DNA of 64,000 nt from Eukaryota sp. GEM-RC1 (Eukaryota): contig JAUFOQ010000006.1 in NCBI GenBank assembly GCA_040285855.1, positions 62,001 through 126,000 of the forward strand, written 5' to 3'. Positions within the stretch are counted from its first letter, which is position 1. Each line of letters opens with the position of its first letter. A program made the position numbers and the translations under genes. Below are positions 16,922-61,372 of the stretch, one piece after another. The notes under the pieces were generated by a model that saw only the letters and a program-made list of their open reading frames with translations, ran no database searches and was not told where the DNA came from.

Positions 16922-17272
16922 TTGTATTTTTATGATTCGAATGGTCATCTGGAAAAGGCTGAACAGCGAAAGTGTTCAAGTTATGCGGATGCTTTGCAGA
17001 AGCTTAATGAAAATCTATATTCTAAGTTTTCATTTGTTCCATTTGCAATTTCAATTTTCGGTAATATTGGTCCAGCCGGTTTAAAGTTTTTCAGTGATTT
17101 TAGTCTTTTATGTCGTTCTAATGGCAAGGTGTTCAATAGCGCTGTATGGATTAATCGAATTATGTTTGCTCTTTCTAGAAACATTCCCAAGTATTTATGT
17201 TCCATTTATTCGAAGTTGTATAGGGACAATTCTCGTGTTGATGTGGAGAATTTAACTTCTTTCATTTTCTGA
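16922..17272 (+). mobile_element. 3' fragment of a non-LTR retrotransposon ORF (region C-terminal to a restriction-like endonuclease)
   Basis: KAEQRKCSSY...FVPFAISIFGNIGPAGLKF matches the AE..K..KY...F.PF..E..G.LG pattern at the end of RLE-type non-LTR ORFs. AATAAA follows downstream. Confidence 0.65.
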
Positions 17273-17753: not shown

Positions 17754-17826
17754 GTTTCTGTAGTGTAGTGGTAATCACGTGATGCTCACACCGTCAAGGT
17801 CCCGGGTTCGACCCCCGGCAGAAACA
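17754..17826 (+). tRNA. trnV-CAC: tRNA-Val (anticodon CAC)
   Basis: Acceptor stem GTTTCTG/CAGAAAC, anticodon arm TGATG-CTCACAC-CGTCA, T-loop GGTTCGAC. No encoded CCA. A T6 Pol III terminator follows at 17828-17833. Confidence 0.97.
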
Positions 17827-35091: not shown

Positions 35092-35092
35092 T

Positions 35093-36094: not shown

Positions 36095-36198
36095 AAAGTG
36101 TCGTATGTGGAATGAATTGTTGACATTGATATTTTTTTCTTCTATATATAATGTCGTTAAACACAACCAATACAATATACAATCTCAGTTTATCAAAC

Positions 36199-38627: not shown

Positions 38628-39084
38628 TGAGTGTGTGAAGTGGTGATGTTTAAGATGCAGATTGTGCAGGGAAACTTTCCTTTCATTATAACTTATATAT
38701 CTACCTTCACTGTATGGACAATGCTGGTCGTACACAAGTCTTAGCAGCTTATTCTACCATCATCAACTTTCTATCGTCTCGTATGTCAAATTATATGTCT
38801 TTGTAAAATGTGATGTTGGTGTTGGGATCGATCTTGATGAAATAGAGCAATGTATCGTGTCATTGGACTACTTTCGAGCACTTCAACACATATCCGAGTC
38901 TTTTAAAGTCACCCCCTTGATCTTACAAATCAAACATGAGATCTCTCTCCTAGCACTCGTTGATGCCATTCTATCTGAAGACAAGGTACCTTCTGCTTCT
39001 GTTTCACTAAATCCAAGGTAATTTCTCCTCCTCCCTGCATAGCTGATGTTCCTCGTAGAAGTGGAACACACCGATCTGTGTTCT

Positions 39085-39930: not shown

Positions 39931-41081
39931 ATGTCAGTTGTATGTCTTTATTCACTCTCATATCAGTCTTCAGATGATGCTACGTCTATGTCTGTCAATT
40001 ATAACAAGAAACGACGCTCTAACGCTTTCCGAAGAAAGAATATGAACAAGCACCAGGATGTCTATAACGTCTTTAGTTATACATCGACAAAGGTGGATGG
40101 TAAAAGTGTTCAGCTCGGTCCCAATGGGGATTATATTCTAATTTCACGACCTCGTGATAATTCAACAGATGGACTTTCTATAAGTACCAACAATGATGAA
40201 TTCCTCTCAGACTTGGTACAGTCTAAGGAAGACTTTTTGAGAATATTGTTCACTTTATTAATTCTAGAACTCAGTATTTAGCTTCCCAAGGCGCAAAAGT
40301 ACCAGACATTTCTTCACGTTTTAAGAAAGTGTATGGTATGAATGCTGAAGAAAACGAAGATCTTTCTGAGTTTTATTCGATTGCTCCTAATAGAACTCAT
40401 ATTGTTAAGAAAAAGAACAAGCACCTTAAAGAAGCTAAAGTTGTGAGCAAAGAAGCCACAACTCCAGAACCTCTCACAAAGTCCTCTCGTAACTCTCCCG
40501 TTGAATCCGCTCCTTCTAATCCTACTGAAAACAATGAAATTCAATCCTCCCTAGGATCACTTGTTTCCAAGACTTTGGGACATCAGTGTGGAAAGGAAAA
40601 GCCTATCTCAGGCAGCGATAAGAGAAAGAAGTTAGAGATAAAGAAGTTAAATGTAGGACCTGTTTTGCAGAAACAACTGGCAAGTAGAACAAAATAAAGA
40701 AGATGTTGTTTATTGAATGAGATAAGTGTGCATGGTCTAGTATAGGACTCCGAAGATGTGAAGTGAAGTCTAAGGTCTAGGTTCACTTTTCTTTCATACA
40801 TGAATCCACTGATCTAATTCTAGATAACTGAACCTCAACCTAAGAAGATTGTTGACGTTGACAGCGTTGTCAAGACTGGTCATGAGGCAGTGACTACTCT
40901 TTTAGCAAACTCTAAGCATTCACTTGACGAGAAGGAACTTGAACTCATCTTTAGTGCAGTTGCTTCCGCCCTTCGTGAAACCACCACCCCAGTAATTGAA
41001 AGAGCTATTCGAATTGCTGGTGATACTACTCGTGATACTGCTAGCCTCATACACCATATGCGATTTAAAACTCATCTTTAG
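39931..41081 (+). CDS. Hypothetical element gene, fragmented
   Basis: ORFs 39931-40281 and 40329-40697 link by one shift at a T-run (~40236: DFFENIVHF...KKVYGM). The link to 40890-41081 is unclear. Confidence 0.45.
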
Positions 41082-41201
41082 TGCAGTTGCTTCCGCCCTT
41101 CGTGAAACCACCACCCCACCCCAGTAATTGAAAGAGCTATTCGAATTGCTGGTGATACTACTCGTGATACTGCTAGCCTCATACACCATATGCGATTTAA
41201 A
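40942..41201 (+). repeat. Tandem duplication, 127-bp period, 2 copies
   Basis: AACTCATCTTTAGTGCAG...GCGATTTAAA at 40942 and 41069. The second copy has a 5-nt insertion. Confidence 0.92.
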
Positions 41202-41754
41202 TTTGTTTTTATAGATCATTATTGTAGTTTTCTTTGTTTAGATATCAATAAAGCATCCCGTTCTTCTTTTGTTTCAAGTCTCTTCCTTGTTAACACGAAA
41301 TCAACATATACGTTCTAGTTCAATGCATTGTCAATGTTGTGATACACAAGAGCATTGAAAATAACATTGTTGATGTATTAATTAATGAATGATGTCAAGT
41401 AAGTAAGTACAAAAATGTTGTATTTGAAGTGTAGGAGATATCCGAAGACAGAAAAGATGTCTGCTATCTGTAGACAAACAAGACAAGACTCCAAAAATGA
41501 ATACTGCAATTTCACTTTTCTTCTCTCTTGACATGCGTATGATCCTCCATCTTTCTAACTATAGACATTGTGATGATGCCAAAAGTAAGTTTTGGTCACG
41601 ATATGTGCTTGCTGCCACGTATATCTATGAGAAGTGACCTCTTTACATAGATGGCAATTCCGCTCTTCTTGTCAATTTGTCTCCTGCACTCGACAATTGG
41701 GCAAGATGAGTTGGGTTGTCATCTGGTGTATCGTGGTTGCACTCATTGCTTTGC

Positions 41755-43600
41755 TTTGCGTCCACATCCGCCATTTCTCAATTCCGCCATCCAGATACTG
41801 TTTCCATTGCACGGTCACGGGATTTGGATGGTGGGTTGAAGGAATGTGTTGTTCCGTGGTTTTCTCTTTATACACTTCTTCTGTGATGATGCTCCTTCAG
41901 TTATCTCCTCTGCTGAAAACACTGGATTTCTGACTGATTCTTGCTGAATGCCTCTTGCATTGTATGTTTCGTAGATCCGCTTGAAGATTGTCCTCTGAGA
42001 AGTATGGTTGTCTTGTGATTTGTCTTGGCCATACTGTATAACTTTCTTCGTTCCATCGTGATTGAGCCATTGTTAACAATCAAACAGATCGCTGAAAATC
42101 CTGAATTTTTAATCAGTAATCGTGCATCGGCCATACTGTATAACTTTCTTCATTCCCTCCGTTTCATTTCTCTCTGCTCTTCTTCTCAAAGTCATAATGG
42201 GAACATCTTGAGCAATAGCTTGGTGGTATATCTTCGTTCCTCTATACAATTCAGAAGTAGAGTAGATCAACAGATGTAAATGGTCTTTATGTCATATACA
42301 TCACCTCTTCAAATCCTGCCACCCCCGCTTCTTTGGGAACAAAATTCGTTGGTGAAAAACAGAAAATGTGACTTTCAATATCAATTAAGTTGGGGGAGAT
42401 ATCCAGATCAATCACTGTCCTGTTAATAGACAGAATTTTGCATAAAGTAATAAGGCCTTTCATACTGGGACTTCTCAATCCAAGACTGCGGGAGAAATCA
42501 ACTCCATTACCATTCAAATGAAAAAAAAATCTCTCTTTAATGTCTTTCTGTTTCCAGGCAATGGAATACTTAGTCTCATTGTCATGTTTGGCGTCCAATC
42601 ATAATCATTACACGATGTTGTTAGATCATTACCTTCAATGGAAACGACCTGCCCGCTATGTTTACAGTTTCCCAAGCACATAGTTCTACCAGCCACAAAA
42701 CTCTCCGATTTTATCAATGATTTATGTGATAGTGATTTGCAAGAAAGAAAAAACGTGTATAAAATTGTAAAACACACGTTCAAAACAATGGAATGATGTC
42801 ATGAGTTCTGAGAATAACAGTGGAGAATGTCGTTCATTCGTTGCTCTCGTACAACTTTTCTGTCTTTTTACGATTTGTTTATCTAAATTAGTTTTTTTGA
42901 AAAAACTAGAGCGATATTTAAATGAACTAAGATCTTAATTTCACGTTTCGTGGATATGGAAGATTCTAATGTATGTTTCCTTTGCTAAAACAACTCTCAA
43001 CTATTGAAGAATCCGAATTTGTTAGTTCACTACTGTCAACCCTGTCACCTCAACTGAACCCGAAACCCTGCAATGGAGTCTATCTTAAACAGGGTATCTT
43101 AAACAACAATTAAAAAACGATAAGGAAGGCTTTTCAACGAGGTTTTCGAAACTTTTCTTAGTTGATTTAGCTGGATCTGAACGTGTTGGTGATGCAGGAA
43201 CGTCAGGGATTGGCTTGGTGATCCCTAATACTATAAGAAACCCTGCAATGGAGTCAGTCTCGAGTTGAGTTAGATAAGGATAGGGAGGCTGTATCATCAA
43301 AGCTACGGCAGTGGAGGTTGAAAATCTACTGTTTATCAACAAGTGCAGTTGTATTTGAGTTACAAAAAGTTTTAATTACAACTGATTCAGTTCCAAAAAC
43401 TTTCAAGGCTTGTTTCTATGAAGAGAAATTTTTTAGACGTAGACGCCTTACACAGTATTCAAGAAAAGAACGAAGTGAACAAAACTTGGTCCACAGATTT
43501 GCTCTCCAATAAGGTGATCCAGATTTTCACATGAATCAAAAACTTGCCATTGGAACGTTGAATATAGACAACGACGTTGTCGAAACTCTTCATACAGAAT
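41755..43600. other. Patchwork of short fragments copied from the element's own genes and from host genes
   Basis: At least 12 segments match other parts of the element, plus an LRR-gene fragment and a kinesin LVDLAGSER fragment (see findings). Confidence 0.88.
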
Positions 43601-44004
43601 GTTTTTGATTTAAACTTTTCGTTACTAAAAAATTGTTTTAGTATCTTCAAGTAAATCTGTAGTTCTCATCATGAAAAGAACCAGTCACAAGATAATTAAT
43701 AAAGTTAAGGCTCATTGTTCTGGGCCATCCTTTGTTTGTACTGAACAGAATCACAATGAAGGTCAACAATGTGTAAAGAAATGGCGACTTCCACGAATTA
43801 AGTGTCAGGACCTGTTTGCAAATTCTTGAACAATAGATGGTTAGGACAATACAAATTGTACATTAATCCACGTGAATGACAAATTCAACACAATGAATAA
43901 ACCCTTGTTTGTCTACTGTCGTATTGTATTGATTGAAAGTCAAAAATGGAATTTTTGTTAGACTATGACTTACTTTAGACATAAATTTTCCTCTCTGTAC
44001 AAAC

Positions 44005-45703
44005 ATGTCAACATCATTCCGTGTCCGCCAACGTTTTCCCAAACAACAGATGCAACTAGACTTCGTAAATGACATTCCTGCGGAAGTTACAGATGTTGAA
44101 ATAATCATCGTCCAAGACACTGCGGGCGACTTCTTCATTGTCGTAGTGTATAATGGACATATTCAATACCATTTAAATCTCGTTCTTGTAACATCAGACG
44201 TTGCACAAACAAAGTTCCTTTTCAGCTTAACATCGTCCTCTAATCTTCGTGCAATCACTCCCCTTGAAGATACACAGTGTATTAGCGACGTGATATCTTT
44301 CATCGTAAAAACCACCCTCTCATCTCATAACCTGATTGTATCCCCTTCTTCTCTTTCCAGTTTGACTAAAACAGTTAACGAGGCTCTTGCTATTCCTGTT
44401 AAAACTACTACTCCTTCAATTTCTACTTCATCTGATTGTTGTTATGTCTATTCAGTTATCCATTTTATTATACGTCACATTGAACGTTTCTTCGAACTCA
44501 ATGTAAATCATTTCAAAGAACTAGATTTTGATACTCCTGCTACTCCTCTCTTCAATTGTTTTTATTCGAAAGATATTGAAGGTGTTCGTGCGCAAATCGC
44601 TGACATTTATCCTGTTTTTGCGGCGGGTCAACACGATCCTTTCAATTTCCTTGCCAAACTTTTAAAAACACTTGACAAGGAATTCCGCACCACCTTGCCA
44701 TCTTCATCAAATGATGAATTACACTCTTTGTCAAAAATTTGAACCACAGTCTGAATCAGAAGAAACTGATACTACAGACTTCCAATATTATGGATATGAT
44801 TTAGATGAGAAACCATCACCAAAAAAAGTTCAGACTCAGTTAGATGTCAAATCATCACTTCAGCAAGATTTAGATCAATTGTTGATAACTCAAAAATTAA
44901 AGCATTCTTGTGCTGTTAATGCATTTTGTTTCTGTATTAAAACAACAACAAAATGTTCTTGGTGTGGGACTGATCCAACATCTAAAATTCACTTCGCCTT
45001 GGAAATTAACAAGGAAAGTATCCAAAGGCGGTATCCTTCTAGACCAACCGATCTCGAATCATTGTTGCAAGCTCATCTACCTTTTCGAAAAGAAATAATT
45101 TGTGCTACTTGTCCTGAACAAAAATCAGAAATTACTGAAACTTTTGCTTCTCTTCCAAAAGCTCTTATCATTAGACTGACTGGACATCCTCAACCAGTTA
45201 TTATTTCTTCAAATCTATCACTCTATCTATTCCTGTCTTCTGAAGCACAATTGGGTTCAGAATCGATTGAGTTTTCCCCTACCAATGAAATCAACTCACA
45301 ACTGCCACTTAAGGACATTTACACATTGTCTCATTATCCAACATCAGAAGAATTGTCTGTCTTTGACATTTCTAATGAAAATGAAAGAAAGTGTGGGAGT
45401 CAGCATTTTGTTAGAGGTAGTGATTGGGAAAGAAGTACCAGTCGAACCTCAACCGCCAAAGTGTCAACCAAGACCAAAAGTAGTGTTGAAGAAAAATACA
45501 CATACAGACTGCTGTCTGCGATCTGTCATTACGATTCCCTTGCTGACGGTCACTGTGTGACATATGCAAAGGAAAAAGAAGGTTCTTGGTGGTTACATGA
45601 TACCAATAGTGATTGCAAGAAAGGTGTAGACGAACAGACAGTATTAACTGAGATTTCTTTAAATGGCTATGTTTTACTTTATCAACATCAATATTTAGAA
45701 TAA
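44005..45703 (+). CDS. USP-family (peptidase C19) deubiquitinase-like protein, frameshift near 44735
   Basis: Cys box-like SDCCYVYSVIHFI, GQHDPFNFLAKLL, CSWC...CATC, SLPKALIIRL, His box YRLLSAICHYDSLADGHCVTYAK..WWLHD, GYVLLYQ. Confidence 0.85.
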
Positions 45704-45853
45704 ACGCATAGTAATAAATTGTTCTACATGTATCTAAGAGAAAATAAAAGTGTACACAAAGCGATCCTTGTAAATGTAGTTGTGAAGACATGAGAATTCC
45801 TTGTTCTATCAGTACAGTATAGTTGTTTACAGCTCCATAATTTTCCCACTCCA

Positions 45854-48800
45854 ATGACTTCTATTATACTGCTAACACCCCTCGCCTCGTCCACATCCGC
45901 CATTGCTTCATCACATCACCCAAACACTGTTTCCATAGCACGGTCACGGGATATGGATGGTGGGTTGAAGAAATGTGTGGATACGTGCTTCCCGATGTCG
46001 TTTCCGCTTATTCTGTGCTCTATCCTCTCGTCCACATCCGCCATTGCTTCATCACATCACCCAAACACTGTTTCCATAGCACGGTCACGGGATATGGATG
46101 GTGGGTTGAAGAAATGTGTGGATACGTGCTTCCCGATGTCGTCTCCGCTTATTCTGTGCTCTATCCTCTCGTCCACATCTGCCATTGCTTCATCACATCA
46201 CCCAAACACTGTTTCCATAGCACGGTCACGGGATATGGATGGTGGGTTGAAGAAATGTGTGGATACGTGCTTCCCGATGTCGTCTCCGCTTATTCTGTGC
46301 TCTATCCTCTCGTCCACATCTGCCATTGCTTCATCACATCACCCAAACACTGTTTCCATAGCACGGTCACGGGATATGGATGGTGGGTTGAAGAAATGTG
46401 TGGATACGTGCTTCCCGATGTCGTCTCCGCTTATTCTGTGCTCTATCCTCTCGTCCACATCATGGAAACGTGATCTCTCTATCGATGGAGACGTTGAGCA
46501 GAATCCAGGTCCCCATGATCGTTTACCATCCCCAGAAGTAAAGAGACCCAGAAGAACTTCTGTGTCACCATCGCCTCCTCCATCTCTGCCAGAACCGCCA
46601 ACTGAAGAAACTCTAACAGAAGAACCGCCAACAGAAGAAACTCAGCTAAAACAAAAGAAACATAATCAAAGAACTAAATACCACATGGGCATATTGCATC
46701 GTTACTGCCGTATTCCACATGAAACTTTTGCCCATCCAGTGCTAAGATCTGGAAGAACACCTGGTTTCCAAGTTTGTTCATGTATGAATCATGTTTTTAT
46801 AGATGAATCCGAAAACTTAACTGATCTCGCTCCAGATGTCATTCCCAATCCAGACAATGAATCACGACGCTCGTTCCTGGCCCAAATTATGCAAGAGTGT
46901 TGCAAACCTGGTGACACGCCAAGTAATTGGAGAATTGAAAATTACATCATGGCCAAACACTATGAATCGGAGTTGATTGAATGTCAACAAGATGCTAATC
47001 ATTACTTGCTCAGTTATGATGGAGCGTTGGAATCCCTCCATAAATATTGGTGTCAATTGTGTGACCCTAATCGAGAATCTACTGTGAGTTTACCGATTAT
47101 GCCTCTTGGATTCAAATATGAGATGCCTCCCCATTGTCCTCAAAAACAACCTTCTTTTCGTGAATCGTTTTGCCTTTTTATTGCTCCATGTCTCTTCTGC
47201 CTTCTTCCTGGTCACAGTTATAATGATTGTCCCTTCCAAACTTTTAGACTTAGTGATGTTTCATTAAGTATCACATCCTTGTATCAAAATATCAACCCTA
47301 AAGTTTTGGTACGTCCTGAGGTTATGCTGGACATTTTATTAACAATGCTCCATCTGCAATTTGTTGTGGATGAGAAGAAACTCAACCTTCAAGTGTATGA
47401 TCGTACGAATAATCATTTTACTTTGGAAATGTTCAAAGAAAACCAAAAAGTGATTGAAAAGTTTGCAAAGTCAAAAGCTGGTTATAAACTCAAAATGTTA
47501 ATCTTTGATATTGCTCATGTTATTGAATTAATTGAAAAGAAGCCCCCAAAAAACCTGATGTTGATGTCAAAGATTCTGATTTTGAACATACTGACGATCC
47601 TACAGACGATCCTTTAAATGATGACGAATTTGATGATCTATATAATCAAACTTCTCTTAGTATTATGTGGGATGATTTTAATAATATCAGAGATTCGTCA
47701 TACACTTCTCAATTACTTTCAAGATTTTTTAACTTTTGTCATTTTCTCGAGCACTATACTTTTGTGGATACAGATGAAGAAAGCCGCATTGTCGAAATTA
47801 AAGACCCTGAAACTAAACAAGTTGTAGAACGGAAAGAAGTTTACCGACATCAGTTTACTGTATATCAAGATTTTTTCGAAAACAAAATTGAAACTATGAG
47901 TATGCTCATGTTCCAACTGTCATTTTGTGCCCATTACCATTCAAATGAAAAAAAAGATCTCTCTTTAATGTCTTTCTGTTTCCAGGCAATGGAATACTTA
48001 GTCTCATTGTCATGTTTGGCGCCCAATCATAGTTATTACAAGATGTTGTTAGATCATTACCTTCAATGGAAACGACCTCCCCGCTATGTTCACAGTTTCC
48101 CAAGCACTGCAACTGTGGCTTCACCAGAGGAACCAACGTCGGAATTTACATCAATTGATTTTCCTAAAGTATGCTCTAAATTAGCACATTTGAAATCTTA
48201 TGTCCGCGAAAGTGATTTACTAACACAAATTCTTGAAATTTTGACAATAAATGAACAGTGGAATCATACTGTTGACAGTAATGACGCCTACTTCCACTTG
48301 GTGTTTTCTTGCTTTCAGTTGATTTCAAAAGCACGTAACTGCCGTATTGCATTTGTTAATGAAGGAAAAGACACTTTTTATCAATTGTTTCGTGTTGTTG
48401 GTCAAAATCATGTCAAAGACAACAATATTATTCCGTTTATTGTTTCTGGTCAAACAGGTTCCGGGAAATCTGTCTTAACTGGTGTTGTTGTGGTCATGGT
48501 TACTTTGAAACCAATCATTGTGTGTCAACCTAGAGTTCTACCAGCCACAAAACTCTCCAATTTTATCAATGATTTATGTGATAGTGATTTTCCTCTGTCT
48601 GGATACCGAACAGGCAACAAGAATACGAACATTCCAGTACATTCACCAAGATTTATCGAAGTTCAAACCGCTGCCTTCACTTCTAAATTTCTGACAAACA
48701 ATAGCAATCTGTCTCGATTTGCAACTATCATGGTGGATGAAGTTCATGAAAGAAAATGTGACATTGACATTTTATTAGCACAAATGAGAATAATTTCCCA

Positions 48801-51800
48801 AACTGATTCAAAATTGAGAGTGGTAATCTGTTCGGCAACTATGGACAAACCTAATCCTTGTTTTAATTACCTTACACAAGGAAATTATTTAGATAACGAA
48901 CCCTCCTATACTATCCATGCAGCTGGAAGAACCAATCCACTGATTGTCCTTGATGTGAATCTTGTTCGTCAAAATGAATTTCATTATAGTCCCTTAATAT
49001 CAAAACTTGTGATAACTCCGATTTTTGAACCTACACTTCAACAGGTTTTCAATGATCATTTTATTGATATTTACACTTATTTTGTCTTAAATGTGAACTT
49101 ATACTACGACTATTTCACTCAAAACTGTAATCCTCTTTCATATAAAAGTATCAATTTCAGAGCGTTAGCCCGACTATGTCTCTGTTATTACTCCCTGTCT
49201 CAGAAACTTTTCCGGTATGAACCAGAATGTACAGGATTTACTTTGCTCGTGTTTCTTCCTGGAAGTCCAGAAATTACAACTCTCAGTAATATTATTGAGA
49301 ATGAGTATGAGAGTCAGAAAAAAGTGGATCTGGTGGTCTATACATCCCAGCTTCTTCTGAGAAGCCAGGTGTGTATCCGTTGTATTCAAGTCTGGATTCA
49401 GTCCAACAAGATGCAGCTGTGGCTAAACCAGCGAAAAAACAATTTAAAATTGTCATTGCTACCAATATAGCAGAATCTTCCTTGACTATTGATGGGGTCA
49501 AATTTGTCATTGACTGTGGTTTGTCAAAGCAAACTGATGCAGATGACCTTCTCGACACTCATCATTGCTCCATTGCTTCTTTGGACCAGCGCTCTGGTCG
49601 TGCTGGAAGAAATTCTCCTGGACTTTCGTTACGTCTTGTGCAGACAAACTTATATCCGGATGGAACTTCGAGATTGCATTATGATAAACCAGAAATTCTA
49701 ACTTGTTCGTTGATTGAGCCATTGTTAACAATCAAACAGATCGCTGAAAATCCTCAATTTTTAATCAGTAATCGTCCAAATCCCCCTGAATTTTTTTATC
49801 AGTCAACTGCCTGATGTTCCTTCTAGCGACAACATCATGTCTTCGGTTGATGTTCTTTTCCGCACTAATGTTCTTTCAAAAACCAACTAAATTCTCCCCT
49901 TACTTATCTCGGAAAGATTTGCACCAATGCCAATATTTCATTCTACAACTTCAAGTTTTTATTTTTCTGTTTAACAAACAATTACCTGTGTCCTGGATTG
50001 ATTCTTCTTGCGGGTATCAATTCTATGTCGTTCATTCGTTGCTCTCGTACAACTTTTATGTCATTTTACGATTTGTATACCTTTTCACAATCGATTCCTT
50101 TACTCAAACAACTCTCTACTATTGAAGAATCTAAAGTTGTACGTTCAGACATGTTTTTCAAATTATCCTTGGTTCATTACATTTTATGTGGCGAATTTAT
50201 TAAAAATCTGGATATTGTCCCAACACGTGATCAAACCCTTAATGATCAAGCCCTTAAGAATTTATCTAAATTAGTTTTTCTGAAAAACTAGAGCGATATT
50301 TAAATGAACTAAGATCTTTAGTTTCACGTTTCGTGGATATGGAAGATTCTAATACTCATCTCAAAAATCAATTAAATGTATTGGAAGGCATTGCTCTAAA
50401 GCTTGTCAATTTCATATCAAATCCTTCTGAAGTTACACTCAATATGTTTCAAAATGAATCAACAATCTTCTCTTCTCTTTTGAACCTCCAAATTCAACGA
50501 CGTCTCTCTTTCAAGCCATTGTGGCTTCTTATCCCAATAAGTCATTCCATTCAACTGTAGTAGACAATTCATTCTCAGTTAGGTTGAAGTTGGAAGGTTA
50601 TGTCAATGGAGAAAAATTTAACAACTTTATAAAGAAATTGTTTGATGAACAAAATATTGTCAAATCTTCCAAATCTCTAAAAGTTAATGACAGTGGTGAT
50701 GACAGTACTCGTTCAGAGACATTATGTTCAAAAGTTAAAATTACTTCAGATCTAGCTCCAGGTGAAACCCAAAGCACTGTTGTTATGTTGCATTCAGAGA
50801 ATACAACTGAAATTGAAAATCTACTGTTTGTCAACAAGTGCCGTGGAACTCTTGATTCATTAAAAAAAATTTCTCTTACGTTCCATCTTGATTGGCATAG
50901 ATTCATTATCAAATCACGATTCAATTTATCAATGGCATTGAAAGTTGTCAATGACCGAGAATTTTGGAACATGTACAACCAATTGTTACAGTGGGGTAAT
51001 ATCGTACATTTGACTATACCAAGAAATTCTATTAAATTAACTTTCGACATTATGTCAAGTCCTTGTAGTGATTTGACTCAATACACTCGTATTGATAATG
51101 AGTGGTCCAAGGAAGTTAAATGTGCCAAATCACTGTTCCCTGTACCTACAGATCTAGGTTATCATAATGGTATTTCTGTTGGTGATAAGTTTCCACAATT
51201 CTTGTCTCATATTCCTTCTTCATGTCAATACTTGTTCATCGTATGGCAAATGAACTTCAATATCAATTTGGTTTCGGAAATGGCAAAGCCATCTATCAAG
51301 GTTGGTACACCAATGCATTGTCAAGATTCGAGGTTCAAACAATTAATTGCATACAGTAATGAGCTGGATATTCATGGATCTTTTGAGGTAAAACGTGTCT
51401 GGAATGTTTACTGGCCTTATCATGAGTTACCAATCGAATCCACCTTTGGATGTATCAATCGATTACGTATTTTGGTATATTTAACGGAACAAGGTGAGGT
51501 TCCCATAACTGTGTTGAAATCGTGGTATGACAACATTATTATTCTTGATTTCAACTTACTGAAAAGTAACAGTCCACCAGTTACCGTGGATTATGTGAAT
51601 GGAAGGAAACATCATTTCCAGTTACTAAATTTCCAAGTCAATGATGAACAGGACCTGTTGATGTGCTTTGATCCTGCGTGTCCTTTATGTGCATCATCAT
51701 GTACTACACTTAATGAAGTAGTAAATTCTGAAATTACCTTAGCCCAACACAAGGTTGAAGAACCTATGATCCCCGAAAACGCTGACCTTCCTGAACCCAT

Positions 51801-53529
51801 GATTAGTGAAACTACTGCATTGCCCCAGTCACCAGTAGCTACAAGTACTTTGGATTTGTCATCTTGGACTAAGTCGTATTGTACTGCCTCTTCTCATACT
51901 GCTAAATATTTAGGACAAAATGTTCAAATCTTAAATTTTACACGTGAAGAAATGAGAACTTTCTATGTTGTTTTTTCATTTGAATCAAAAATTGCCATTG
52001 GAACGTTGAATATAGACAACGACGTTGTCGAAACTCTCCATACAGAATTTTTTTCTGCTAATACTCCTACTCCTACTCCTACTCCTGTGTTGAATGTTAC
52101 ATTACGATTTGTAGTCTACAACATTGATAAAGAACTCCGAAGGTTCAGTCGCAGTATTGATGATGATAGACCACAGTGTAAACCATTTGACAATCAATTG
52201 ACTATGTTTGCACTTCATCATCAATTGCTTTACCAGGCCATACTGATTGCTTTTGAAGGGCCCATATTTATGATTCAATACAAGCCAAAAACAGACAAAC
52301 GAAAGACTATTCGACAAGTATTACCGTTGCCGTTGGCCAGAGACAGTTTTGATTCTCAATGTATTGACATGGCTGCTGCAAAAATTGTTTTGTTGTCGCA
52401 ACGAAGACTCTGTTGTTGATCATTTTTGTGCAGGAAGATGAAAAAAATTGTGTTAATTGTTCAGAATTATCAACATTAATGGATTTAAACATGTCTGAAA
52501 TTGATCGTGACGAAGAATTCAAAAGTTTGAAGTGCTATGACGATTTCGTTCTAGTTGTCGGCACTTGTTCCATCCGAAAGTTAGACTTGTATGAAAGGGA
52601 GCTGCTTGGTGAACAACCTGTATGGGAATTTTGCTCCTGTCACAAAGATGACAGAATTATAGATGCAGTGTATGTTAAGCATTATGACACAATAATGTAC
52701 ATCACGGAATTTGGGTTCTGTGTTGGTTTCGGTTTGAAACTACCAAAGAAACAGATTCAATTTATTATTGATTGTTCAAGTGGTGAGTTCACAGGTCAAC
52801 TGTTAAAAATCGATTTTTGCAATGATTTAAATTCTTTCATTGTTCTGAAAAGGATGGAACACTGTTAATGCTTTCAGCATTATCTGTGATTGGTATTTCT
52901 GGTGTACCATTAGAAGTTCATGATGTTCGCTCTTGTGATTCAAAAAATATTTACGAACAACGAAGTCTTGAACTACATGCTTTAACTGTTCAATCGACTC
53001 AACAAGTTCAACAAGTTGAGATTCCTGTTGTTGAAGAAAGTGCTCATCCCATCGACATTGATACGACGAAAAGACTTCAGTTTCTTTCATCTAGATGGAG
53101 TGTTGATGAAAAAATGAACAAGGTGAAGCATTTGTTGACTATATTTGAGTTACAAAAGTTGTAATTACAACTGATTCAGTTGAAAAAGTAAGGAAACTTT
53201 CAAGGCTTGTTTCTGAGGTTGCTTTTAAAGTTGTGACACTAGAGGGTGGAAAACCACGAAAGATTACATCAAGTCTGAAAATATTCGATGAACAGACTGA
53301 TCCTGTTTTATTGATCAGTACTACTCAATTAGCGGTTAACCATTCTGTTCGGGCTGATCTTTGTATAATCTTTGATCTGCCAAATGATGCCAGACATGTT
53401 TACAATTTGTATGAACATAATCAAAAAATCGTTGTCTTTTACGATTCTATCCGTGATAAGGACAAAAAGCAAAATTTGGAAAAACACTTCTTTAGACCCT
53501 CAGGATTGCAAGCACTTGATTTTATATAG
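45854..53529 (+). CDS. ~2550-aa polyprotein: 47-aa repeats, 2A peptide, CCHC knuckle, DEAH/RHA helicase, long unknown region, degenerate helicase-C-like end (many 1-nt frameshifts)
   Basis: DVEQNPGP, CLFCLLPGHSYNDC, GQTGSGKS, IVCQPR, MVDEVHER, ICSATM, LVFLPG, IVIATNIAESSLTIDGVKFVIDCG, QRSGRAGR. Consecutive + ORFs link mostly at homopolymer runs. Full continuity is inferred. Confidence 0.75.
45886..46461 (+). repeat. 4 x 141-bp near-identical tandem repeat upstream of the first 2A motif
   Basis: CCACATC phase at 45891, 46032, 46173, 46314 and 46455. Confidence 0.95.
46463..46513 (+). other. 2A-like ribosomal skipping (StopGo) peptide WKRDLSIDGDVEQNPGP
   Basis: Exact D(V/I)ExNPGP consensus, in frame with ORF 45854. 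Confidence 0.88.
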
Positions 53530-53998
53530 TCTTTCAATAATTCATTGATGTTTTTTTATTATGTAGAACAATATAATAATTATAAGTCTTTATTACAATT
53601 TTTCTTTATTTATCAATCAACGAAGAAGTTGATTGATTGGGTTTATCTGGTCTAAATTTATAATTTATTCCATGATTTTTCACATAAACTATGCGACCAC
53701 ATCTACACTGAATATGTAACAAATTGGTCTGGTTTTATATGTCACATTTTCTGACATACTAAATCTGTAACAAATTTCTGTCAGATTTCAGGTGGATGAA
53801 ATTCACGGATTGTTCTGTGTGTAATAACTATGTAACAAAACATTGGTATTCAGACTACGTCTGACACAGTTCAAACTGCAAAATTGAACATTGTAATATT
53901 GTACAATTATTATTGTTTATTTGCTGTGTTATTCTTATATGTTTTACAAAATTATAAATACATCTATATTGTACTATTTATTCTCTATCACTGTCAAT

Positions 53999-55524
53999 TC
54001 ATTTTTTTAAAAGTCTTTTTGATTCCAAAAGCACTTGCAGTGGTTTTAATTCTTCGTTTTCCTGTTTTTTCCCTAAAACTTCATTTTCGTCTTTTGTCTT
54101 TGACGATTTGTTTTCAAATTTTGTTGTTGAACCATCAATTACATTTTGTTCTGTCACCAAGTCAGGTTGTACACTCTGAAGTAGATCATACATAACAAGA
54201 CATAGATTTTTTCTTGATCTGTTAGTGTTTAATTTTGTCTGATTTTGTTCCTGACGTGCATCAACCATTAATCCTTGTAAAATTAAAGTAACATTCAAAC
54301 AGACAATCCATCCACAGATAAGAGACGATGTTGACTGTGCAAAAGGTATATAGTAGTCCACCTTATACTCTGGTAATCTTGCAAACAGATTTGTTTCCCC
54401 ACATCCATAAACAGTTCTAAAAGGATTAACGATTAATTCAGTGGTTAATGAATAATCCAAAGAATCATAAATATTGAATAATAAAACATTTGCTTCATTT
54501 AGAAACAATTCAATAAGAATCCAATGACCAGATCCTGCATCACCAGGAACATGTTCTTTCACCAAACATAATGGGGCAAGAATTCTTTTCCTGATTTTAG
54601 TGTATCGACAATAGCCTTACCAGAATGTAAGGCATAGCATATTGGATCACCTACCAACTGTTGAGTTTCTTGAGATTGCAGGAATTTGTACCTACTTGAT
54701 TTAAATTTTTGGAATGCAAGCATCACAATGAAATCAAGTTCAGAACTCAACAAGAGTTGTGTTTTACCTTCCCTATCATCCTTTGTCAACATTTTCTCAA
54801 TATCACTAAATTCAAATTTTAATTTTGAATTTATGTAAAACTGATCACTGATTAAATCTACAGAAAGAATCAACGGGTTACGTTGTTTTTTGCGTTTCAT
54901 AGGTTTAGATAAATTAGCATTATCACTGACTGGAACAGGAACTATTTCAGATGGTTCAGAGAAAATAGAATGAATATGATTGATTGCGAAGTTATCAATA
55001 CGACGTTTTGGTGAAGGAAAAACGACTTGCGATGGAGTATCGTCAAAGCGAGTATTGTCACAATCATGTAAAAGAGGAGGAGACTGAGGCTGAGGAGGAG
55101 GAGGGGAACGAGCAATTGTAACTCGTTTAACGTCTTTGAGTAGATCCTTAAGATGATTTAGAGTTGAAGTTGTTGAAGGAAGTGGAAGAGATATGTCACG
55201 CTTCTCATAAGAACCATCAAAAGGAAAGAGATGAACAGTTTCTAGATCAACATCTAGCACAATGGCAACGGCTGATTTGTAGTTGAGGCAAAAATCCATG
55301 GTACCCTTTTTAAGATCATCTGGTAAGTCAGATGTTGACACTTCCGTTATGTGGATGGATTTAGTTCTCCATGAATTGTATGTTCCATAAGGAAGAAGAA
55401 CAAGTGACAAGTTAACTGCATGCTTATCAGCAAGCTTTACAACAAGTTTCATATATGTTTTGATGGTACGGGAACGACTTTCTTGTTCAGAAGTATTTCT
55501 GAGTTTGAAGATTGAGTAGGACAT
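53999..55524 (-). CDS. Ulp1/SENP-like (peptidase C48) cysteine protease with N-terminal extension, frameshift near 54570
   Basis: GSGHWILI (His), IYDSL (Asp), AQSTSSLICGWIVC (Gln, Cys). Upstream LLSSELDF lies in ORF 54559-55524. Confidence 0.78.
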
Positions 55525-55638
55525 GGGAAATTCTGATATAGACTTTATTACAGTTTTCGTTTTTTAACACGTGAATTCACACACACATGTCCATTACAGT
55601 CTGTGTGGGATTTCATTTTCCTTCCTCCTACAGTATAA

Positions 55639-58600
55639 ATGTCGTTTGTTCTGCATCCAAACAGATGTTGTCCGCCATTCTGTCCTTATCTGACTCAACT
55701 TGTGACTGACTCCATTGCACGGTTTCGGGCTCAGTTGAGTTTAGATAAGGACAGTTCTTTCCCTCCACTGCCTCCACTTCTGTTGCTTCGATAATGCCGC
55801 CATTCTGTCCTTATCTGACTCAACTTGTGACTGACTCCATTGCACGGTTTCGGGCTCAGTTGAGTTTAGATAAGGACAGTTCTTTCCCCTCCACTGCCTC
55901 CACTTCTGTTGCTTCGATAATGCCGCCATTCTGTCCTTATCTGACTCAACTTGTGACTGACTCCATTGCACAGTTTCGGGCTCAGTTGAGTTTAGATAAG
56001 GACAGTTCTTTCCCCTCCACTGCCTCCACTTCTGTTGCTTCGATAATGCCGCCATTCTGTCCTTATCTGACTCAACTTGTGACTGACTCCATTGCACGGT
56101 TTCGGGCTCAGTTGAGTTTAGATAAGGACAGTTCATTCTGTGTTTTATCAACACATACATTTGTTGCCATGAAGTACTCGTCTCCCCTGTTTATCCCTTC
56201 CCATCCTCCGTTCCCAAAAGACCTCACCGCTGATGGTGATATTGAATCCAATCCAGGACCCGTAACTCAAGAAGCCATAAACTCAGTTTATCCTAATCAA
56301 TGGGTTGATGACGAAGCGATAGTGGAGTACTGTAAAGTGATATTTCAACAAGCAGGGTTAGACTTTGAAAGCATGTTTATCCATCCGACCACATGGCTTC
56401 AATACATTGTTTCACCAGATGTCCCGCTAGATCAATGGTTGTTGACGAAAATTCAGCGAAATCAAAGAACAAACTCCAAATATCTCTTTGTTCCCCTTAG
56501 TGATACCATGACTAGAAATGCTAATTATTCCAGAGAAGGTGTCACTGGTTCTATTGGGGTTTAGCCATTATAGACTGTTGTGAAAAGGAATGGATCTTCA
56601 TTGATCCGATGTTAACTACCGTCGATATGAGTAAGTCTATGGTAAAATCAGCTGTAGACATAATATCCGAACTACTTGTGCCATGGGGGTATGTTTTCCG
56701 TTATGTGCCTGTGACTAAAACACAATCTGCTAACGACTGTGGAGTTTATGTCATTGCGTATATTCAAAAATATGTTGAACTTTTTAAAAGACTCACGTAT
56801 GTTCCGTCTCTAATGTATTTGGAAACTTATTTGGTCCAAGTGAACATTGAACTTCAAGCAAACATATTTTGTGAAAAAATTCTGGAGGTCTTGTCTCAAC
56901 AAAGAACACTTTATCTACAACAACGTCAAACCACAGTAGCTCCTATTGTACCATCGTTACCCATTCAACCTCCTGCCGGTAAAGAACATCCAACCACTTC
57001 AATTCCTCTCACAGGTTCACGTCTTGCTAGCACTAAAGCATCTACTGGTTTAAGCACTAAAAAAAGTAAAGCCAAAATTTCTGATATTCCATCACCACGA
57101 GGTTCACCTTTAATTCAACGAAATAAATTTAGAACTACCAGCTCCCTTGTTTCAACTGGTGACACTCCAATGCGAAAGACTCACCGCCGTATGTCCACAT
57201 TGGAATCATCGGAATTACCATCATCTGAACTATCATCGCCATCTGAACTATCATCATTAACTGAACTACCACCATCTGAACTACCACCCAAATCACAGGC
57301 CTCCATTATGTCGTATCCATCGCCAATTCAAGAAGAAATCCATAAAATGGAAGTAAATCTACACACTGAGCCTATCGAACAAGAAATACAAATTCAAGAC
57401 TTTCTTAATTCCCCTTTACTTTGGAACAATCTGCCAACTTTTTGTTTAATTCATGTTCAAAGTGATTTTGCCAAAAAGAAAGAATTAATGGCAAAAATGT
57501 TCAACTTGTTCAAGATGATGATGACATTGAAACTGTTGAAGGTGAAGCTGAAAATCAATTAGAAGTTAAACGTGATTCTTCTGTTGATCCGATTGTATCA
57601 ATTTCCATCCAGATCATTGATCACAATGAGTTTAATGAAAAACATTTATTTTCTCATGGCAATTTTGATACTACAAACTTGGATTTGTGTACTTTACATA
57701 TTTCAGATAGTGAATCCAGTATGCTTAAAAACTTCATCTCCTTCATTACTCAACATTGTCCACGATTGTTTGTGAGTTATGACTTTCACTTAGATACATT
57801 TCCCTTTCTTGTATCACGTTGTCAAGTCCTCAAAATCAATACAACGTTTACTTTTCCAGAATTTAAACCCTATATTCCCTTTTGGTTCAACAAATGGTGT
57901 AAGGAAACAACTTTTGGTCCGTTTTTTAGTCTCGATTTGAATGCTGTACTGAAGAATTTTTATGTCTTTACTGGTGGCCGTTTTTTGGAAAATGTTGTTC
58001 AAATTTTTCTTGAAATGAATAATTTTTCTAAAAATGAAACTGTCAAACGCTTGGAAGAACTTAATCATGACTCTGATCCTGATGAAGTTCAATTGATCAA
58101 TAATGTCCAAAACTTGCATGGCATAATTGACAGTATTAATGTTTTAGTTCCAGACAATCCCAAAGTGAAGGTCGATAAGATTAAAAAGAAATTTGTAAGA
58201 AATTTGGAGAAAGTAAATGAACTTTGGGCCAAGGAATCGACAAGACCGCTATTGTTGATGAACTCAATTCAACAATTACCTCTGATTGAGTACTTGTTGG
58301 CTGACCTACTGGATCCCAAAAAACAAACATTACGTTCAAAGTCACCAATGAAAGTGGTTAAGAAACGACTAGACAATGTTGTATTCAAATCGAAGGTTAA
58401 ATTTATTGAATCTCGTGTTAAGAGAGCTCATCAAGTAAGAGTACGTGGTTCTCTCTTTTTGAAACATTTTTTGTTCATAATTTTCATCATTCGGGTATTT
58501 TAGGTTACATTAAGAAGTTACTGCCTGCTACTGTTCCAAATGTAACTGTTAAGGAAGAAATGAATTCTGATACAAATGAGTCAACTGATGAAGAAACAGA

Positions 58601-61222
58601 TGTACATTCAGAGTCTATCCATGCTGCTACTCCTCCTATTAAATTAGAAAATATTGAAGATGTGAGTGGTGAACCTGAACTTGACCTTTGGACCAAAATT
58701 CAAACTAACAAATTTGAATTGCCAGACTGGAAGAATTTTTTACGTTGAAATCAATGGAACAAGTGTTATCTATGATGACGATTAGGGACGAAAGACTTGT
58801 AAACAATCAGAATCATATTAGGACTGTAAAAGAGTCTTTAGAAAACATAACTTCTAAACCAAATGAGGCCTCAACTCAAAATCAGTTTGCTCAACACTTC
58901 TTGATGCATTACATTCCTCGTTTAGAACTAGCTGCTCGATCTGTTGGACTTGATAGGATTGTGTTTCCCAGTAGTCATCGTTTATCTCGTATATTGCATT
59001 ACATGGCTACTGAAATTATAACGAATTACAAGACTAACATGAGTGAACACTTTCACGAATATGTTTTTCAGGTATTTAATTTGGTTATCCTGAAAAAGAT
59101 AGACTTAACAAGCTTACTGATAAGAATCAACGACAAGAGTTGTGTACAAAGCTTAATGAAGTCAGACAGTTGATCATTAATGGGGAAATTTCAAAAATTA
59201 ATTTTCAAGATGTTGAAGTGTTTCCTGATCCCAATTCTAGACTGAGTTTACTATTTTTTAACTATTTGTTTACTTTTTTTGAAGGTAAAATGGAAAAAAC
59301 AATCTATTATGCTGAAAAAGTAGATCCTTTGAAATTCTTAAGTCATGCAGTGTATTTGAAACGTCTTGTTGAAGACTCTTGTACTGGTGTTACTGCCAAT
59401 AATCCTTTTCCTCTGACAAAATCATTGATTCCTAATCATATTAGGTTGGATACTTCATGGTTTAAAGAAGTTTATACATCAGAAATTAAAGGTAACTTTG
59501 ATGACGTTCGAAAAGATATTTGGCACTCAGTTTTGAAACCAAAGTGTCTTCCAAAGTCATTGTCTCATGACTTCAAATACAGTTCTATTTCTACAGATGG
59601 AGTTAGCTGTAGTTTAATGATGATGCGGAAAGATCTGCTTGATGGGAGAGGAAATCCTCATAAGAAGGTGAAAGCGGTTAACCACACCAGTACTGAAAGG
59701 TACATTGATTCTTTGAGTTCAACAGAAATTCAAAACTTAAATTTGAAATCAAAAAGAATTGTTGCTATTGATCCTAATCAGCATGATTTGATGTACTGTG
59801 CTTCTTTAAAATCTAAGGAGGAAAAGGAAATCGAAGGTTTCGATACATCAGCCAAACTCAGAAGAAGAAAGATTTCTCCAAAATCATCAAAGAAAAAAGG
59901 AAGCTTGAAAAAATTAAAAAATGAATTGAAGGATTGGAAAGACGCACCCACTATTGACAAACCATCAACTGTCAAGTTGAAAAATCGTGATAATTGGAAA
60001 GTATTCAGATACACTGCTGGGGAGCGCAATGCCGATATTAAAAAGTCTCCATGGAAAAGAAAAAAACAAGGAAGGAAAGAAAAAGAGCTAAGAGAAAGAA
60101 GAGGAAGCTGGAGAAGAAAATAAGACGATATAATCTCCACCGTTTATCTGAGTCCGAACGGTTACAACAATACTCTACCCAATTTATTCACATTCCAGAT
60201 GGCAGACGCATTGACATAAATGGGCAACAAATTTTAGATCAATGGGGCTCTAACTCACCAGGTAGTAAATCTTGTGAATTGACTCAGTATTCTGCTTTTG
60301 TTCTTGGTAAAGAAATTACCTGTTCCTTATTACGATCACCCACTACTGATCAAAGAACTACTGCAGGAATTTACGAAGAAAAGTGGTTTAGACGTAGACG
60401 CTTAACACAGTATTCAAGAAAGGAACGAAGTGAAAAAACATGCTTCACAGATTTGCTCTCCAGTTTGGAAACCCAGATGAAGTCATTGTTGGGTATGGAG
60501 ACTGGAACGACACTGCTTTTCGTCGAAGAAGAGGTAAAGCATCTACTGTGAAAGGTGTTTCAATTCGGAAATTATTGAAAAAATTTGGATTTAAAGTGTT
60601 CCTAGTTGATGAATTTAAGACCAGCAAATGTTGTTCTGCATGTGTTTCCAGAAACGACGAAGGTATCTGTTCCAATCCTGAAAGGATAAAAGTCACTGAT
60701 CCTCATTGGAAGAAGAAGTTACAGAAGGAAGAGAAAGAATTAAAAAAGGAAATTATGGAACACAATCAATTAGACAATATTGTGCAGCGTAACTTTGATG
60801 ATGAATGGACTGACCAGTTGCCATTATCGAAAGAAAGATTGAAGAGCAAAAAAGTCTCACCATGGGGCTTAGTTGAATGTGCTAAATGTCATGTCCTCTG
60901 GAATAGAGACTTCAATTCTGCTATCAATATTTACAATATTGTAGATGGAACCATTCAAGGTCAAGGTAGACCTGCCATCCTCGAGAGACCAAAATCTCAA
61001 ACAACACCTGTCGTGGATGGCGGGAATACAGATCAGATTCCTAAGAAAAAGACTGTGAGTAAGGGTAAGGGTAAAGCAAAGCGTCCTCTAACAAAAGTCA
61101 GAGGTCCTAACAAGTGTGGTATATGTTTTCAACCTGGACATAACAGAGCAACTTGTCCAAATAAGCCTAAGAAAGATGTACCCAAGGACTCACACGTAAA
61201 CCAGAAAGATCAGGAATCTTGA
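55639..61222 (+). CDS. ~1860-aa polyprotein: 42-aa repeats, 2A, Ulp1-like protease, S/P linker, degenerate PolB-exonuclease-like domain, Fanzor1 nuclease, CCHC knuckle
   Basis: Eight single-base restorations (~55761, 56541, 57475, 58470, 58740, 59095, 60042, 60435) join all + ORFs from ATG 55639 to TGA 61222 (5584+8=5592 nt, 1864 codons). Motifs: DIESNPGP; GHW/IDP/TQSANDCG; IVAIDPN, VDEFKTSKCCSAC, CAKCHVLWNRDFNSAINI; CGICFQPGHNRATC. Confidence 0.8.
55672..56134 (+). repeat. ~3.7 x 126-bp near-identical tandem repeat upstream of the second 2A motif
   Basis: CCGCCATTCTGTCC at 55672, 55797, 55923 and 56049. The first unit is one C shorter. Confidence 0.95.
56211..56261 (+). other. 2A-like ribosomal skipping peptide FPKDLTADGDIESNPGP
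   Basis: Exact D(V/I)ExNPGP consensus, in frame, immediately before the Ulp1-like domain. Confidence 0.88.
58348..61222 (+). CDS. Fanzor1-type (eukaryotic TnpB-like) RNA-guided RuvC endonuclease moiety
   Basis: YKTNMSEHF, IPNHIRLDT, ISTDGVSCS, RuvC-I D (59770), VIVGYGDW, RuvC-II E (60611), CxxC..CxxC, RuvC-III D in WNRD (60908), GRP. Confidence 0.92.
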
Positions 61223-61372
61223 ATCTATGAAGTTAGCCCGTCTTAAAAGACTTTGCGAATGAGGATATTTGTCTAATAATTTAGACATTTGTTCAAACTG
61301 TGAGTTTTGCTCTATATGAGATCATGAAAATGTGAAGGGTTATGCCCTTATGCATTTGGAATGAAATTCACA
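61223..61372 (+). ncRNA. Candidate Fanzor omega-RNA (scaffold to element end 61348, plus ~15-20 nt flank-derived guide)
   Basis: Lies between the Fanzor stop and the mapped element end. Hairpins TGTCTAA-taat-TTAGACA (61270-61287) and AAGGGT-tat-GCCCTT (61335-61349). The 5' boundary is unknown and may overlap the ORF. Confidence 0.6.

What the first reader, a model, noticed from the sequence alone, without database searches (positions are those of the whole stretch)
45854..56261. Two unrelated genes share one design: perfect tandem repeats, then a 2A skip peptide, then an enzyme
Seen: 4x141 bp precede WKRDLSIDGDVEQNPGP (46463-46513), and ~3.7x126 bp precede FPKDLTADGDIESNPGP (56211-56261). Both unit lengths are multiples of 3 and stop-free in the 2A frame, but the two units are unrelated in sequence. 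Established: D(V/I)ExNPGP StopGo motifs are known from RNA viruses, the N-termini of some non-LTR retrotransposon ORFs and a few cellular genes. Inference: 2A discards a copy-number-variable leader, so the repeats could act at the DNA/RNA level (promoter monomers, translation tuning) or yield small repeat peptides. Two such modules in a DNA element with no RT is unusual.
Basis: partly seen in the sequence, partly recalled or inferred. Interest (0 to 1): 0.8.

Follow-up and report, generated by a model that had tools for sequence, protein, structure and literature searches.

The report
Swappable hairpin leaders ending in 2A
In a single-celled eukaryote, two giant genes of a multi-copy, likely mobile element that carries a Fanzor nuclease start with tandem repeats sharing one predicted RNA hairpin and then a virus-like 2A signal, which likely lets the ribosome discard the variable repeat peptide so that leaders can be swapped without changing the enzyme.

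Summary
Both repeat arrays and both 2A motifs are real. Two corrections: the units are not unrelated, since both hold a 75-nt hairpin with a shared 25-nt tip and compensatory stem changes; and the first 126-type unit is out of frame as assembled. The modules head two giant genes (DEAH helicase; Ulp1-exonuclease-Fanzor1) of a family with 9-26 near-identical gene models per segment in one named protist genome. Paralogues carry 1-8 in-frame units; at least six unrelated leader types sit before two Ulp1 bodies, exchanged at or beside the 2A codons; 35 of 36 models that retain the body start have an intact 2A, including a Fanzor in a second species. Best reading: repeats are cis-acting RNA hairpins inside the ORF and 2A is a plug-in joint that drops the junk leader peptide. 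The hairpin loop reads AUUGCAC/AUUGCAG/AUAGCAC, the U1A/U2B'' recognition heptamer, but is predicted to be 7 nt, shorter than U1A prefers. Skipping, expression and mobility are untested; no transposase or RT was found.

The parts
45854..46462 (+). Leader 1: ATG 45854 plus 4.1 x 141-bp units (47 aa each), in frame with 2A
45901..46398 (+). Four 75-nt hairpins (45901-45975, 46042-46116, 46183-46257, 46324-46398), loop AUAGCAC, interrupted lower stem (z -1.9)
46463..46513 (+). 2A/StopGo motif 1, WKRDLSIDGDVEQNPG|P
46511..53529 (+). Gene 1 body in frameshifted pieces: basic/low-complexity start, Cys/His-rich unknown region, DEAH/RHA helicase, unknown region, weak second Helicase_C; one ORF from leader into helicase in paralogues P0007 and P0012. 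The pieces after 50.3 kb are joined to it by inference only
54002..55524 (-). Multi-copy gene without 2A, divergent from gene 2; Ulp1-like His/Asp/Cys spacing by eye only, no Pfam hit
55639..56210 (+). Leader 2: ATG 55639, 3.7 x 126-bp units (first unit 125 nt as assembled), 72-nt linker
55680..56131 (+). Four 75-nt hairpins (55680-55754, 55805-55879, 55931-56005, 56057-56131), loop AUUGCAC, z -6.7
56211..56261 (+). 2A/StopGo motif 2, FPKDLTADGDIESNPG|P
56259..61222 (+). Gene 2 body in frameshifted pieces: Ulp1/C48 protease, PolB-type exonuclease domain (catalytic motifs look degenerate), Fanzor1, zinc knuckle; homologue P0001 is one 1473-aa ORF with 2A, exonuclease and Fanzor
44005..45703 (+). 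Multi-copy USP deubiquitinase gene without 2A, 150 bp upstream of leader 1
61223..61350 (+). Candidate Fanzor guide-RNA scaffold and right end (position inferred; fold only z -1.8)
41746..43606 (.). Patchwork of 30-180-nt fragments of family genes (80-98% identical), including a better-paired 141-type hairpin at 41772-41846 (z -6.0) and two inverted 126-type tips with loop AUUGCAG

Best explanation
The two modules are exchangeable leader cassettes at the start of two giant genes in a multi-copy, likely mobile, Fanzor1-encoding element: each repeat unit is predicted to fold into the same RNA hairpin, and the 2A peptide likely releases the repeat-encoded leader so that the enzyme starts at the same proline whatever leader it carries. 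Shown: arrays, motifs, in-frame copy-number variation, leader/body mosaics joined at the 2A codons, 2A conservation across bodies 33-44% identical and in a second species, shared hairpin geometry. Inferred: the hairpins act in cis on the mRNA (protein binding, translation or transcript fate), dose set by unit number; intergenic space is only 115-150 bp, so they lie inside the ORF and are translated; 2A insulates the enzymes from a hydrophobic, unconstrained peptide and so lets leaders expand, contract and swap by recombination among copies. The hairpin's ligand is unknown; a U1A/U2B''-type RRM is the best lead.
For: 2A intact in 35 of 36 fetched models that hold the first body residues, the other has NLGP; three more distant gene-1 paralogues with unrelated leaders also keep it (P0022, P0023, P0117). 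Gene-1 leaders: 2,2,2,3,3,3,4,7 units of 47 or 51 aa in 8 models. Gene-2 body VTQE takes 42-type (14 models), 38-type (3) or another leader (1); body SKDS takes 38-type (3), 33-type (2), 27-type (1), 76-type (1). Fanzor homologue in a second species has an N-terminal 2A. Hairpin: 11 of 30 pairs change on both sides among 3 sequences; 85.5% of cells paired against 28-57% when slid; plus strand folds better than minus in all three. 2A-2 has the DLTxDG upstream motif with D12/S15 described by Li et al. (PMC12846837, passages), and its 14-mer is listed as predicted class A, untested, in Rao et al. Table S2.
Against: No skipping, expression or transcript start was measured. The motif alone does not guarantee activity; many retrotransposon 2As are weak (PMC3708506, passages). 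Covariation rests on two independent unit types only, and related sequences inflate these counts. The window's own 141 hairpin is interrupted (z -1.9; whole unit -0.2). Mosaicism is not confined to 2A (P0123 switches body type further in). Linkage of all four genes in other copies is not shown; element ends and a transposase were not found. Both genes are frameshifted in the window.
Confidence: 0.6

Rival explanations
1. The repeats are DNA-level promoter monomers like those of mouse L1; each unit carries a start site and an in-frame ATG, the palindrome is a DNA binding site or cruciform, and 2A evens out the N-terminus.
For: Copy number varies among copies as in L1Md promoters (PMC6454616, abstract); both window unit types contain in-frame Met and also fold as DNA (z -2.3 and -3.8); leader swapping parallels promoter replacement (recalled).
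Against: Arrays lie downstream of a conserved first ATG, inside the ORF; G-U pairs favour the sense RNA strand; stem sequence is free while pairing is kept, unlike a transcription-factor site.
Confidence: 0.15
2. 2A mainly works as an attenuator (fall-off or reduced yield) that, with the stable hairpins, keeps a nuclease, proteases and helicase at low levels.
For: Most tested retrotransposon 2A-like peptides reduced protein abundance (bioRxiv 10.64898/2026.06.17.732966, section 13); self-restraint model in PMC3708506; hairpins of -36 kcal/mol inside an ORF would slow ribosomes (inference).
Against: These 2As are W/R/D virus-like and Leu-poor, the pattern that paper ties to skipping rather than reduction (passages); attenuation does not explain swaps at the 2A codons. 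Not exclusive of the best explanation.
Confidence: 0.12
3. The hairpins are precursors of small RNAs (Dicer-type cuts of the 24-bp stem) that regulate the element or the host, and the tip is a processing signal.
For: Near-perfect 22-25-bp stems of variable sequence under a conserved tip.
Against: The 141-type stem in the window is interrupted; no reason for strict in-frame placement; no small-RNA data.
Confidence: 0.08
4. The leader peptides are functional products or targeting signals, with 2A splitting the protein between two locations.
For: Last 35 leader residues are hydrophobic in many types (11-residue Kyte-Doolittle maximum 1.0-2.65 in 13 models); precedent of 2A-like signal sequences (PMC4981915, abstract).
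Against: Leader peptides of at least eight types share no sequence and swap freely before the same body; the two window units keep base pairing, not amino acids.
Confidence: 0.05
5. Arrays and mosaics are assembly artefacts of a repeat family.
For: Element genes carry many frameshifts; 12 of 15 inspected break regions hold a run of 5 or more identical bases (no background control); reads were not seen.
Against: Units differ by point changes within arrays; distinct unit lengths and copy numbers recur on different contigs; the design recurs with unrelated units.
Confidence: 0.03

Closest known systems
2A-bearing APE-type non-LTR retrotransposons (L1Tc, Ingi, CR1, L2, Crack)
   Same: 2A near the N-terminus of a mobile-element protein, ahead of the enzyme (PMC3708506, passages).
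   Different: No RT or APE hit in this element; two 2A genes plus two genes without; tandem hairpin leaders; RNA-guided nuclease cargo.
Fanzor1 elements, in particular MCi-2 of Mucor circinelloides
   Same: Fanzor1 (SpuFz1 E 1e-13, PpFz1 E 7e-8); multi-copy, no recognisable TIRs, near-identical 3' part with exchangeable 5' regions (PMC3627910, section 12).
   Different: Here the exchangeable part is a translated repeat leader ending in 2A; Fanzor is fused behind Ulp1 and exonuclease domains; TSDs and a transposase fragment were not found. The passages read mention no 2A, protease, exonuclease or tandem repeats.
RNA-virus StopGo motif class 4 (DLTxDG + DxExNPGP)
   Same: Upstream hexapeptide and core match; W in the same register in 2A-1 (PMC12846837); best distant phmmer hits were to 2As of virus-like polyproteins.
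   Different: Single N-terminal 2A in a chromosomal gene, nothing functional recognisable upstream.
U1 snRNA stem-loop II / U2 stem-loop IV (U1A, U2B'', SNF sites)
   Same: C followed by AUUGCAC or AUUGCAG in a hairpin loop; the three key purines A1, G4, A6 are invariant in 11 of 11 window copies.
   Different: Predicted loop 7 nt versus 10-11 nt; AUAGCAC in the 141 type; tandem copies in coding mRNA; no Rfam U1/U2 match.
Mouse L1Md promoter monomers
   Same: Tandem, copy-number-variable units at the 5' end of a mobile element (PMC6454616, abstract).
   Different: Those are untranslated promoter units of a retrotransposon; these are in-frame, structured and followed by 2A.

Membership tests
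StopGo/2A (class A; Li motif 4) | Core D(V/I)ExNPGP in an open frame with an upstream start | tested here: met
StopGo/2A (class A; Li motif 4) | Upstream DLTxDG-type hexapeptide | tested here: met
   DLTADG exact; DLSIDG one change; motif from PMC12846837
StopGo/2A (class A; Li motif 4) | Conservation among diverged homologues | tested here: met
   35 of 36 models; bodies 33-44% identical
StopGo/2A (class A; Li motif 4) | Peptide-bond skipping activity | not testable with these tools
   needs reporter or proteomics
Fanzor1 | D...TS-C4 zinc finger-RD motif and similarity to Fanzor1 proteins | tested here: met
   IDPN, VDEFKTSKCC, CAKC..WNRD present; D-to-TS spacing about 283, slightly over the 125-275 given in PMC3627910
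Fanzor1 | Multi-copy, element-borne | tested here: met
   clusters of 26 and 18 gene models, 4 in a second species
Fanzor1 | Conserved structured guide RNA 3' of the ORF | tested here: inconclusive
   61220-61350 folds at z -1.8; no DNA of other copies
Fanzor1 | Defined transposon ends (TIR/TSD) or cognate transposase | tested here: inconclusive
   no flanking direct or inverted match above 12 nt; no transposase hit in 69 of 85 ORFs; one copy only
APE-type non-LTR retrotransposon with 2A | RT and APE endonuclease downstream of 2A | tested here: not met
U1A/U2B'' binding site | C-AUUGCA(C/G) heptamer in a loop | tested here: met
   7 of 11 copies exact (5 AUUGCAC, 2 AUUGCAG), 4 AUAGCAC; unpaired probability 0.97 or more
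U1A/U2B'' binding site | Loop of at least 10 nt | tested here: not met
   7-nt loop with closing-pair probability 0.98-1.0; opening it costs 6-8 kcal/mol; requirement from PMC4114683
U1A/U2B'' binding site | Host encodes U1A/U2B'' and binds the hairpin | not testable with these tools
   no genome held; diplomonad U2 snRNAs lack SL IV (PMC6679479)
L1Md-type promoter monomers | Units lie in the untranslated 5' region and drive transcription | tested here: not met
   units lie downstream of the first in-frame ATG; promoter activity itself untested
Any curated Rfam family | Covariance-model match | tested here: not met
   40000-64000, E up to 5: two weak unrelated hits, none on the arrays

The most novel reading that the evidence does not exclude
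A transposase-less Fanzor element spreads with a plug-and-play expression system: arrays of hairpins that mimic the U1A/U2B'' sites of spliceosomal snRNAs recruit a host RRM protein to the element's mRNAs, are translated through, and are cut loose by virus-type StopGo, with the 2A codons serving as the recombination joint for exchanging leaders among genes.
Probability: 0.2. Interest if true: 0.9.

Novelty: new variant of a known kind. Interest (0 to 1): 0.72.

Why it matters
N-terminal 2As are common in eukaryotic mobile elements and their purpose is open (Rao et al.). This family offers a natural experiment: one genome, dozens of copies, the same enzyme behind many leaders, always joined at an intact 2A. 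It suggests 2A can serve as an insulator that lets cis-acting RNA live and turn over inside a coding region. It would also extend StopGo to Fanzor-type DNA elements and to a free-living metamonad, and adds a new structured RNA, new 2A peptides and an unusual Ulp1-exonuclease-Fanzor fusion to test.

Tried and rejected
No whole genome held. Tip pattern: 0 hits in viral contigs; 1 in metagenome contigs, inside what reads by eye as a bacterial coding sequence without a hairpin array, taken as chance. Fanzor alignment in viral contigs: 109 pattern matches, none confirmed. Rfam: nothing on the arrays. Covariance model of the hairpin: no further full copy in the window. Peptide back-translation for hairpins in other leaders: the positive control reached only 2 of 60 shuffles, the nine others were not significant, so no power. 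Heptamer coding capacity: compatible in 3 of 10 other leaders under the looser pattern, about what chance gives. Locus-tag adjacency as a linkage test: tags do not appear to follow position (6 of 30 against 5.1 expected), uninformative. Single-sequence AlphaFold of 50785-52416: pLDDT 32, not used. ESM Atlas: no usable hit for two unknown regions. Earlier scan findings: none in three look-ups. Ribozyme, SECIS, IRE, H/ACA and snRNA-gene readings were considered from memory and dropped because their motifs are absent by eye. Not-in-print claim rests on searches (listings only; one search listed 15 of 414, none with 'Fanzor') and on supplement look-ups; other supplements, including the Fanzor locus tables of PMC10530073 and the datasets of PMC12846837, were not searched and could list these loci.
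Full report
Observation. The two 2A motifs are the only such octapeptides in six frames, against 7e-5 expected. Module 1 is open from ATG 45854. Module 2 is open only from unit 2, because the first unit lacks one C; five paralogue models read from the same first ATG sequence through to 2A.

Setting. The left part of the window holds ordinary eukaryotic genes (MCM, Vps39, SP-RING ligase, Tudor-SN-like, UFM1 ligase, PCMT). From 44.0 to 61.2 kb lie four genes: a USP, gene 1 (2A, then a DEAH/RHA helicase about 660 residues later), a minus-strand gene with Ulp1-like spacing by eye, and gene 2 (2A, Ulp1, PolB-type exonuclease domain, Fanzor1, zinc knuckle). Each is multi-copy: clusters at 90% identity hold 14 (gene 1), 9 (its later piece), 16 (minus gene), 18 and 26 (Fanzor pieces) and 11 (USP) gene models. 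These are models, not loci, and only 15 per cluster were listed. Named members carry the label Eukaryota sp. GEM-RC1, a skoliomonad metamonad in the paper on these organisms, whose assemblies are Nanopore plus Illumina (10.1101/2023.05.03.539051, passages and section 5). The window's genes are in pieces; paralogues read through most breaks (P0007, P0012, P0050, P0064, P0086), and 12 of 15 inspected break regions contain a run of 5 or more identical bases (no control). I read the breaks as mostly residual long-read errors; decay of this copy is not excluded. That the four genes form one element is inferred from adjacency here and similar copy numbers; the linkage test in other copies was uninformative, and ends were not found.

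The leaders vary, the 2A does not. Eight gene-1 models with 2A have 2 to 7 units of 47 or 51 aa, in frame. Gene-2 models show 42-type units (1-3 annotated, 14 models; models that start at an internal Met undercount), and unrelated 38-, 76-, 33- and 27-aa units. One body takes three leader types, a paralogous body four, and the 38-type sits on both; the sequence switches fall just before, inside or right after the 2A. Of 36 fetched models that retain the first body residues, 35 have an intact motif and one has NLGP (three virus-like polyproteins were left out of the 134 proteins). Gene-1 paralogues only 33-44% identical keep W-x-x-(D/N)-L...D(V/I)ExNPGP behind other leaders, one with three 52-aa repeats. 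A 1473-aa exonuclease-Fanzor protein of a second species also starts with a leader and 2A, without visible repeats. Against a special role of the joint: P0123 is mosaic further inside the body as well.

The two units share an RNA fold. The 141 unit, a variant of it at 41772-41846 and the 126 unit align without gaps over 75 nt; tip identity 20 of 25, arm identity 9 of 25. All three fold in the same register: about 24 bp of lower stem, 4 bp, a 2x2 pyrimidine loop, two C-G pairs and a 7-nt loop; z -1.9, -6.0 and -6.7, each better on the sense strand. Eleven of 30 pairs change on both sides; slid controls drop from 85.5% to 28-57% paired. This is two lineages, so it is suggestive rather than statistical proof. 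No Rfam family matches. The loop reads AUUGCAC in 5, AUUGCAG in 2 and AUAGCAC in 4 of 11 window copies. AUUGCAC with a closing C-G pair is the U1A site and AUUGCAG the U2 SL IV variant (PMC2203988, PMC5992148, PMC4114683, passages). Against this lead: U1A prefers loops of 10 nt or more, the 7-nt loop dominates the ensemble and opening it costs 6-8 kcal/mol, diplomonad U2 snRNAs lack SL IV (PMC6679479, passages), and three other leader types cannot encode the heptamer.

Mechanism. With 115-150 bp between genes, cis-acting hairpins sit inside the reading frame. Their peptide is unconstrained and often hydrophobic near its end. An active 2A would release it and give every copy the same Pro-starting enzyme, often with a basic cluster soon after (nuclear-signal reading recalled). 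That frees leaders to expand, contract and be exchanged by recombination among copies. The 2As look like the active viral type: DLTxDG with D12/S15 (PMC12846837, passages); the 2A-2 14-mer is listed as predicted class A, untested, from an unclassified sequence (PMC12338488, supplement row); neither peptide nor the organism labels were found in the supplements of the 2026 eukaryotic screen. Activity is not shown, and many retrotransposon 2As are weak or lower protein yield (PMC3708506, passages; 10.64898/2026.06.17.732966, passages and section 13; 10.64898/2026.09.24.754024, passages, added nothing on elements). The Fanzor keeps its three acidic catalytic positions; the exonuclease motifs are intact in the second species but look degenerate in this family (motif names recalled). 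How the element moves is unknown: no RT, transposase or capsid among 69 of 85 ORFs scanned.

Comparison. N-terminal 2As are known from APE-type retrotransposons; Fanzor1 elements with exchangeable 5' regions from MCi-2 (PMC3627910, passages and sections 12, 15); guide RNAs lie 3' of Fanzor ORFs (PMC10530073, passages); tandem 5' monomers from mouse L1 (PMC6454616, abstract); 2A signal sequences from PMC4981915 (abstract and opening). I found no report of 2A in a Fanzor element or of translated hairpin arrays ending in 2A in searches, which cover open-licence papers only and were seen as listings.

Verdict. A real, family-wide design and a new variant of known parts. Interest 0.72; confidence in the insulating-joint mechanism 0.6; the U1A-mimic reading 0.2.

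Noticed in passing
window 41746-43606: Patchwork of at least 13 fragments of 30-180 nt from the element's genes (helicase, Fanzor, both hairpin types) mixed with host-like bits (a kinesin-like LVDLAGSER at about 43160 and an inverted piece resembling the host LRR-gene family at 42287-42500, both by eye). It could be a capture zone of the element, repair filler or a host silencing locus.
   Followed up: partly
window 36200-38750 (-): PIF1 helicase gene in three frameshifted pieces; unclear whether host or element-borne; no Rep/HUH domain seen beside it.
   Followed up: partly
window 35092-36140: Arrays of 15-bp units (TACAACATTTGGTGA type) on both sides of a 25-nt inverted repeat pair (35197-35221 / 35771-35795); looks like a separate small non-autonomous element.
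   Followed up: no
window 40942-41201: Two copies of a 132-bp unit, not matching the hairpin model.
   Followed up: partly
window 16916-17272 and 17754-17827: ORF that by eye resembles the C-terminal endonuclease region of a non-LTR retrotransposon (no Pfam hit), 480 bp from a tRNA-Val gene.
   Followed up: no
window 21807-22647: Two overlapping ORFs with endonuclease/exonuclease/phosphatase-like motifs by eye (SWNIG, LLLQE, IIAGDFN, IDFI); no Pfam hit at 1e-4.
   Followed up: no
window 45808-45830 and 55628-55640: Both 2A genes have TACAGTATA shortly before the first ATG; possible shared core promoter or splice-acceptor-like motif.
   Followed up: no
P0091, P0092, P0114, P0122, P0123: A paralogous gene-2 body carries two Ulp1-like domains in tandem after the 2A.
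   Followed up: no
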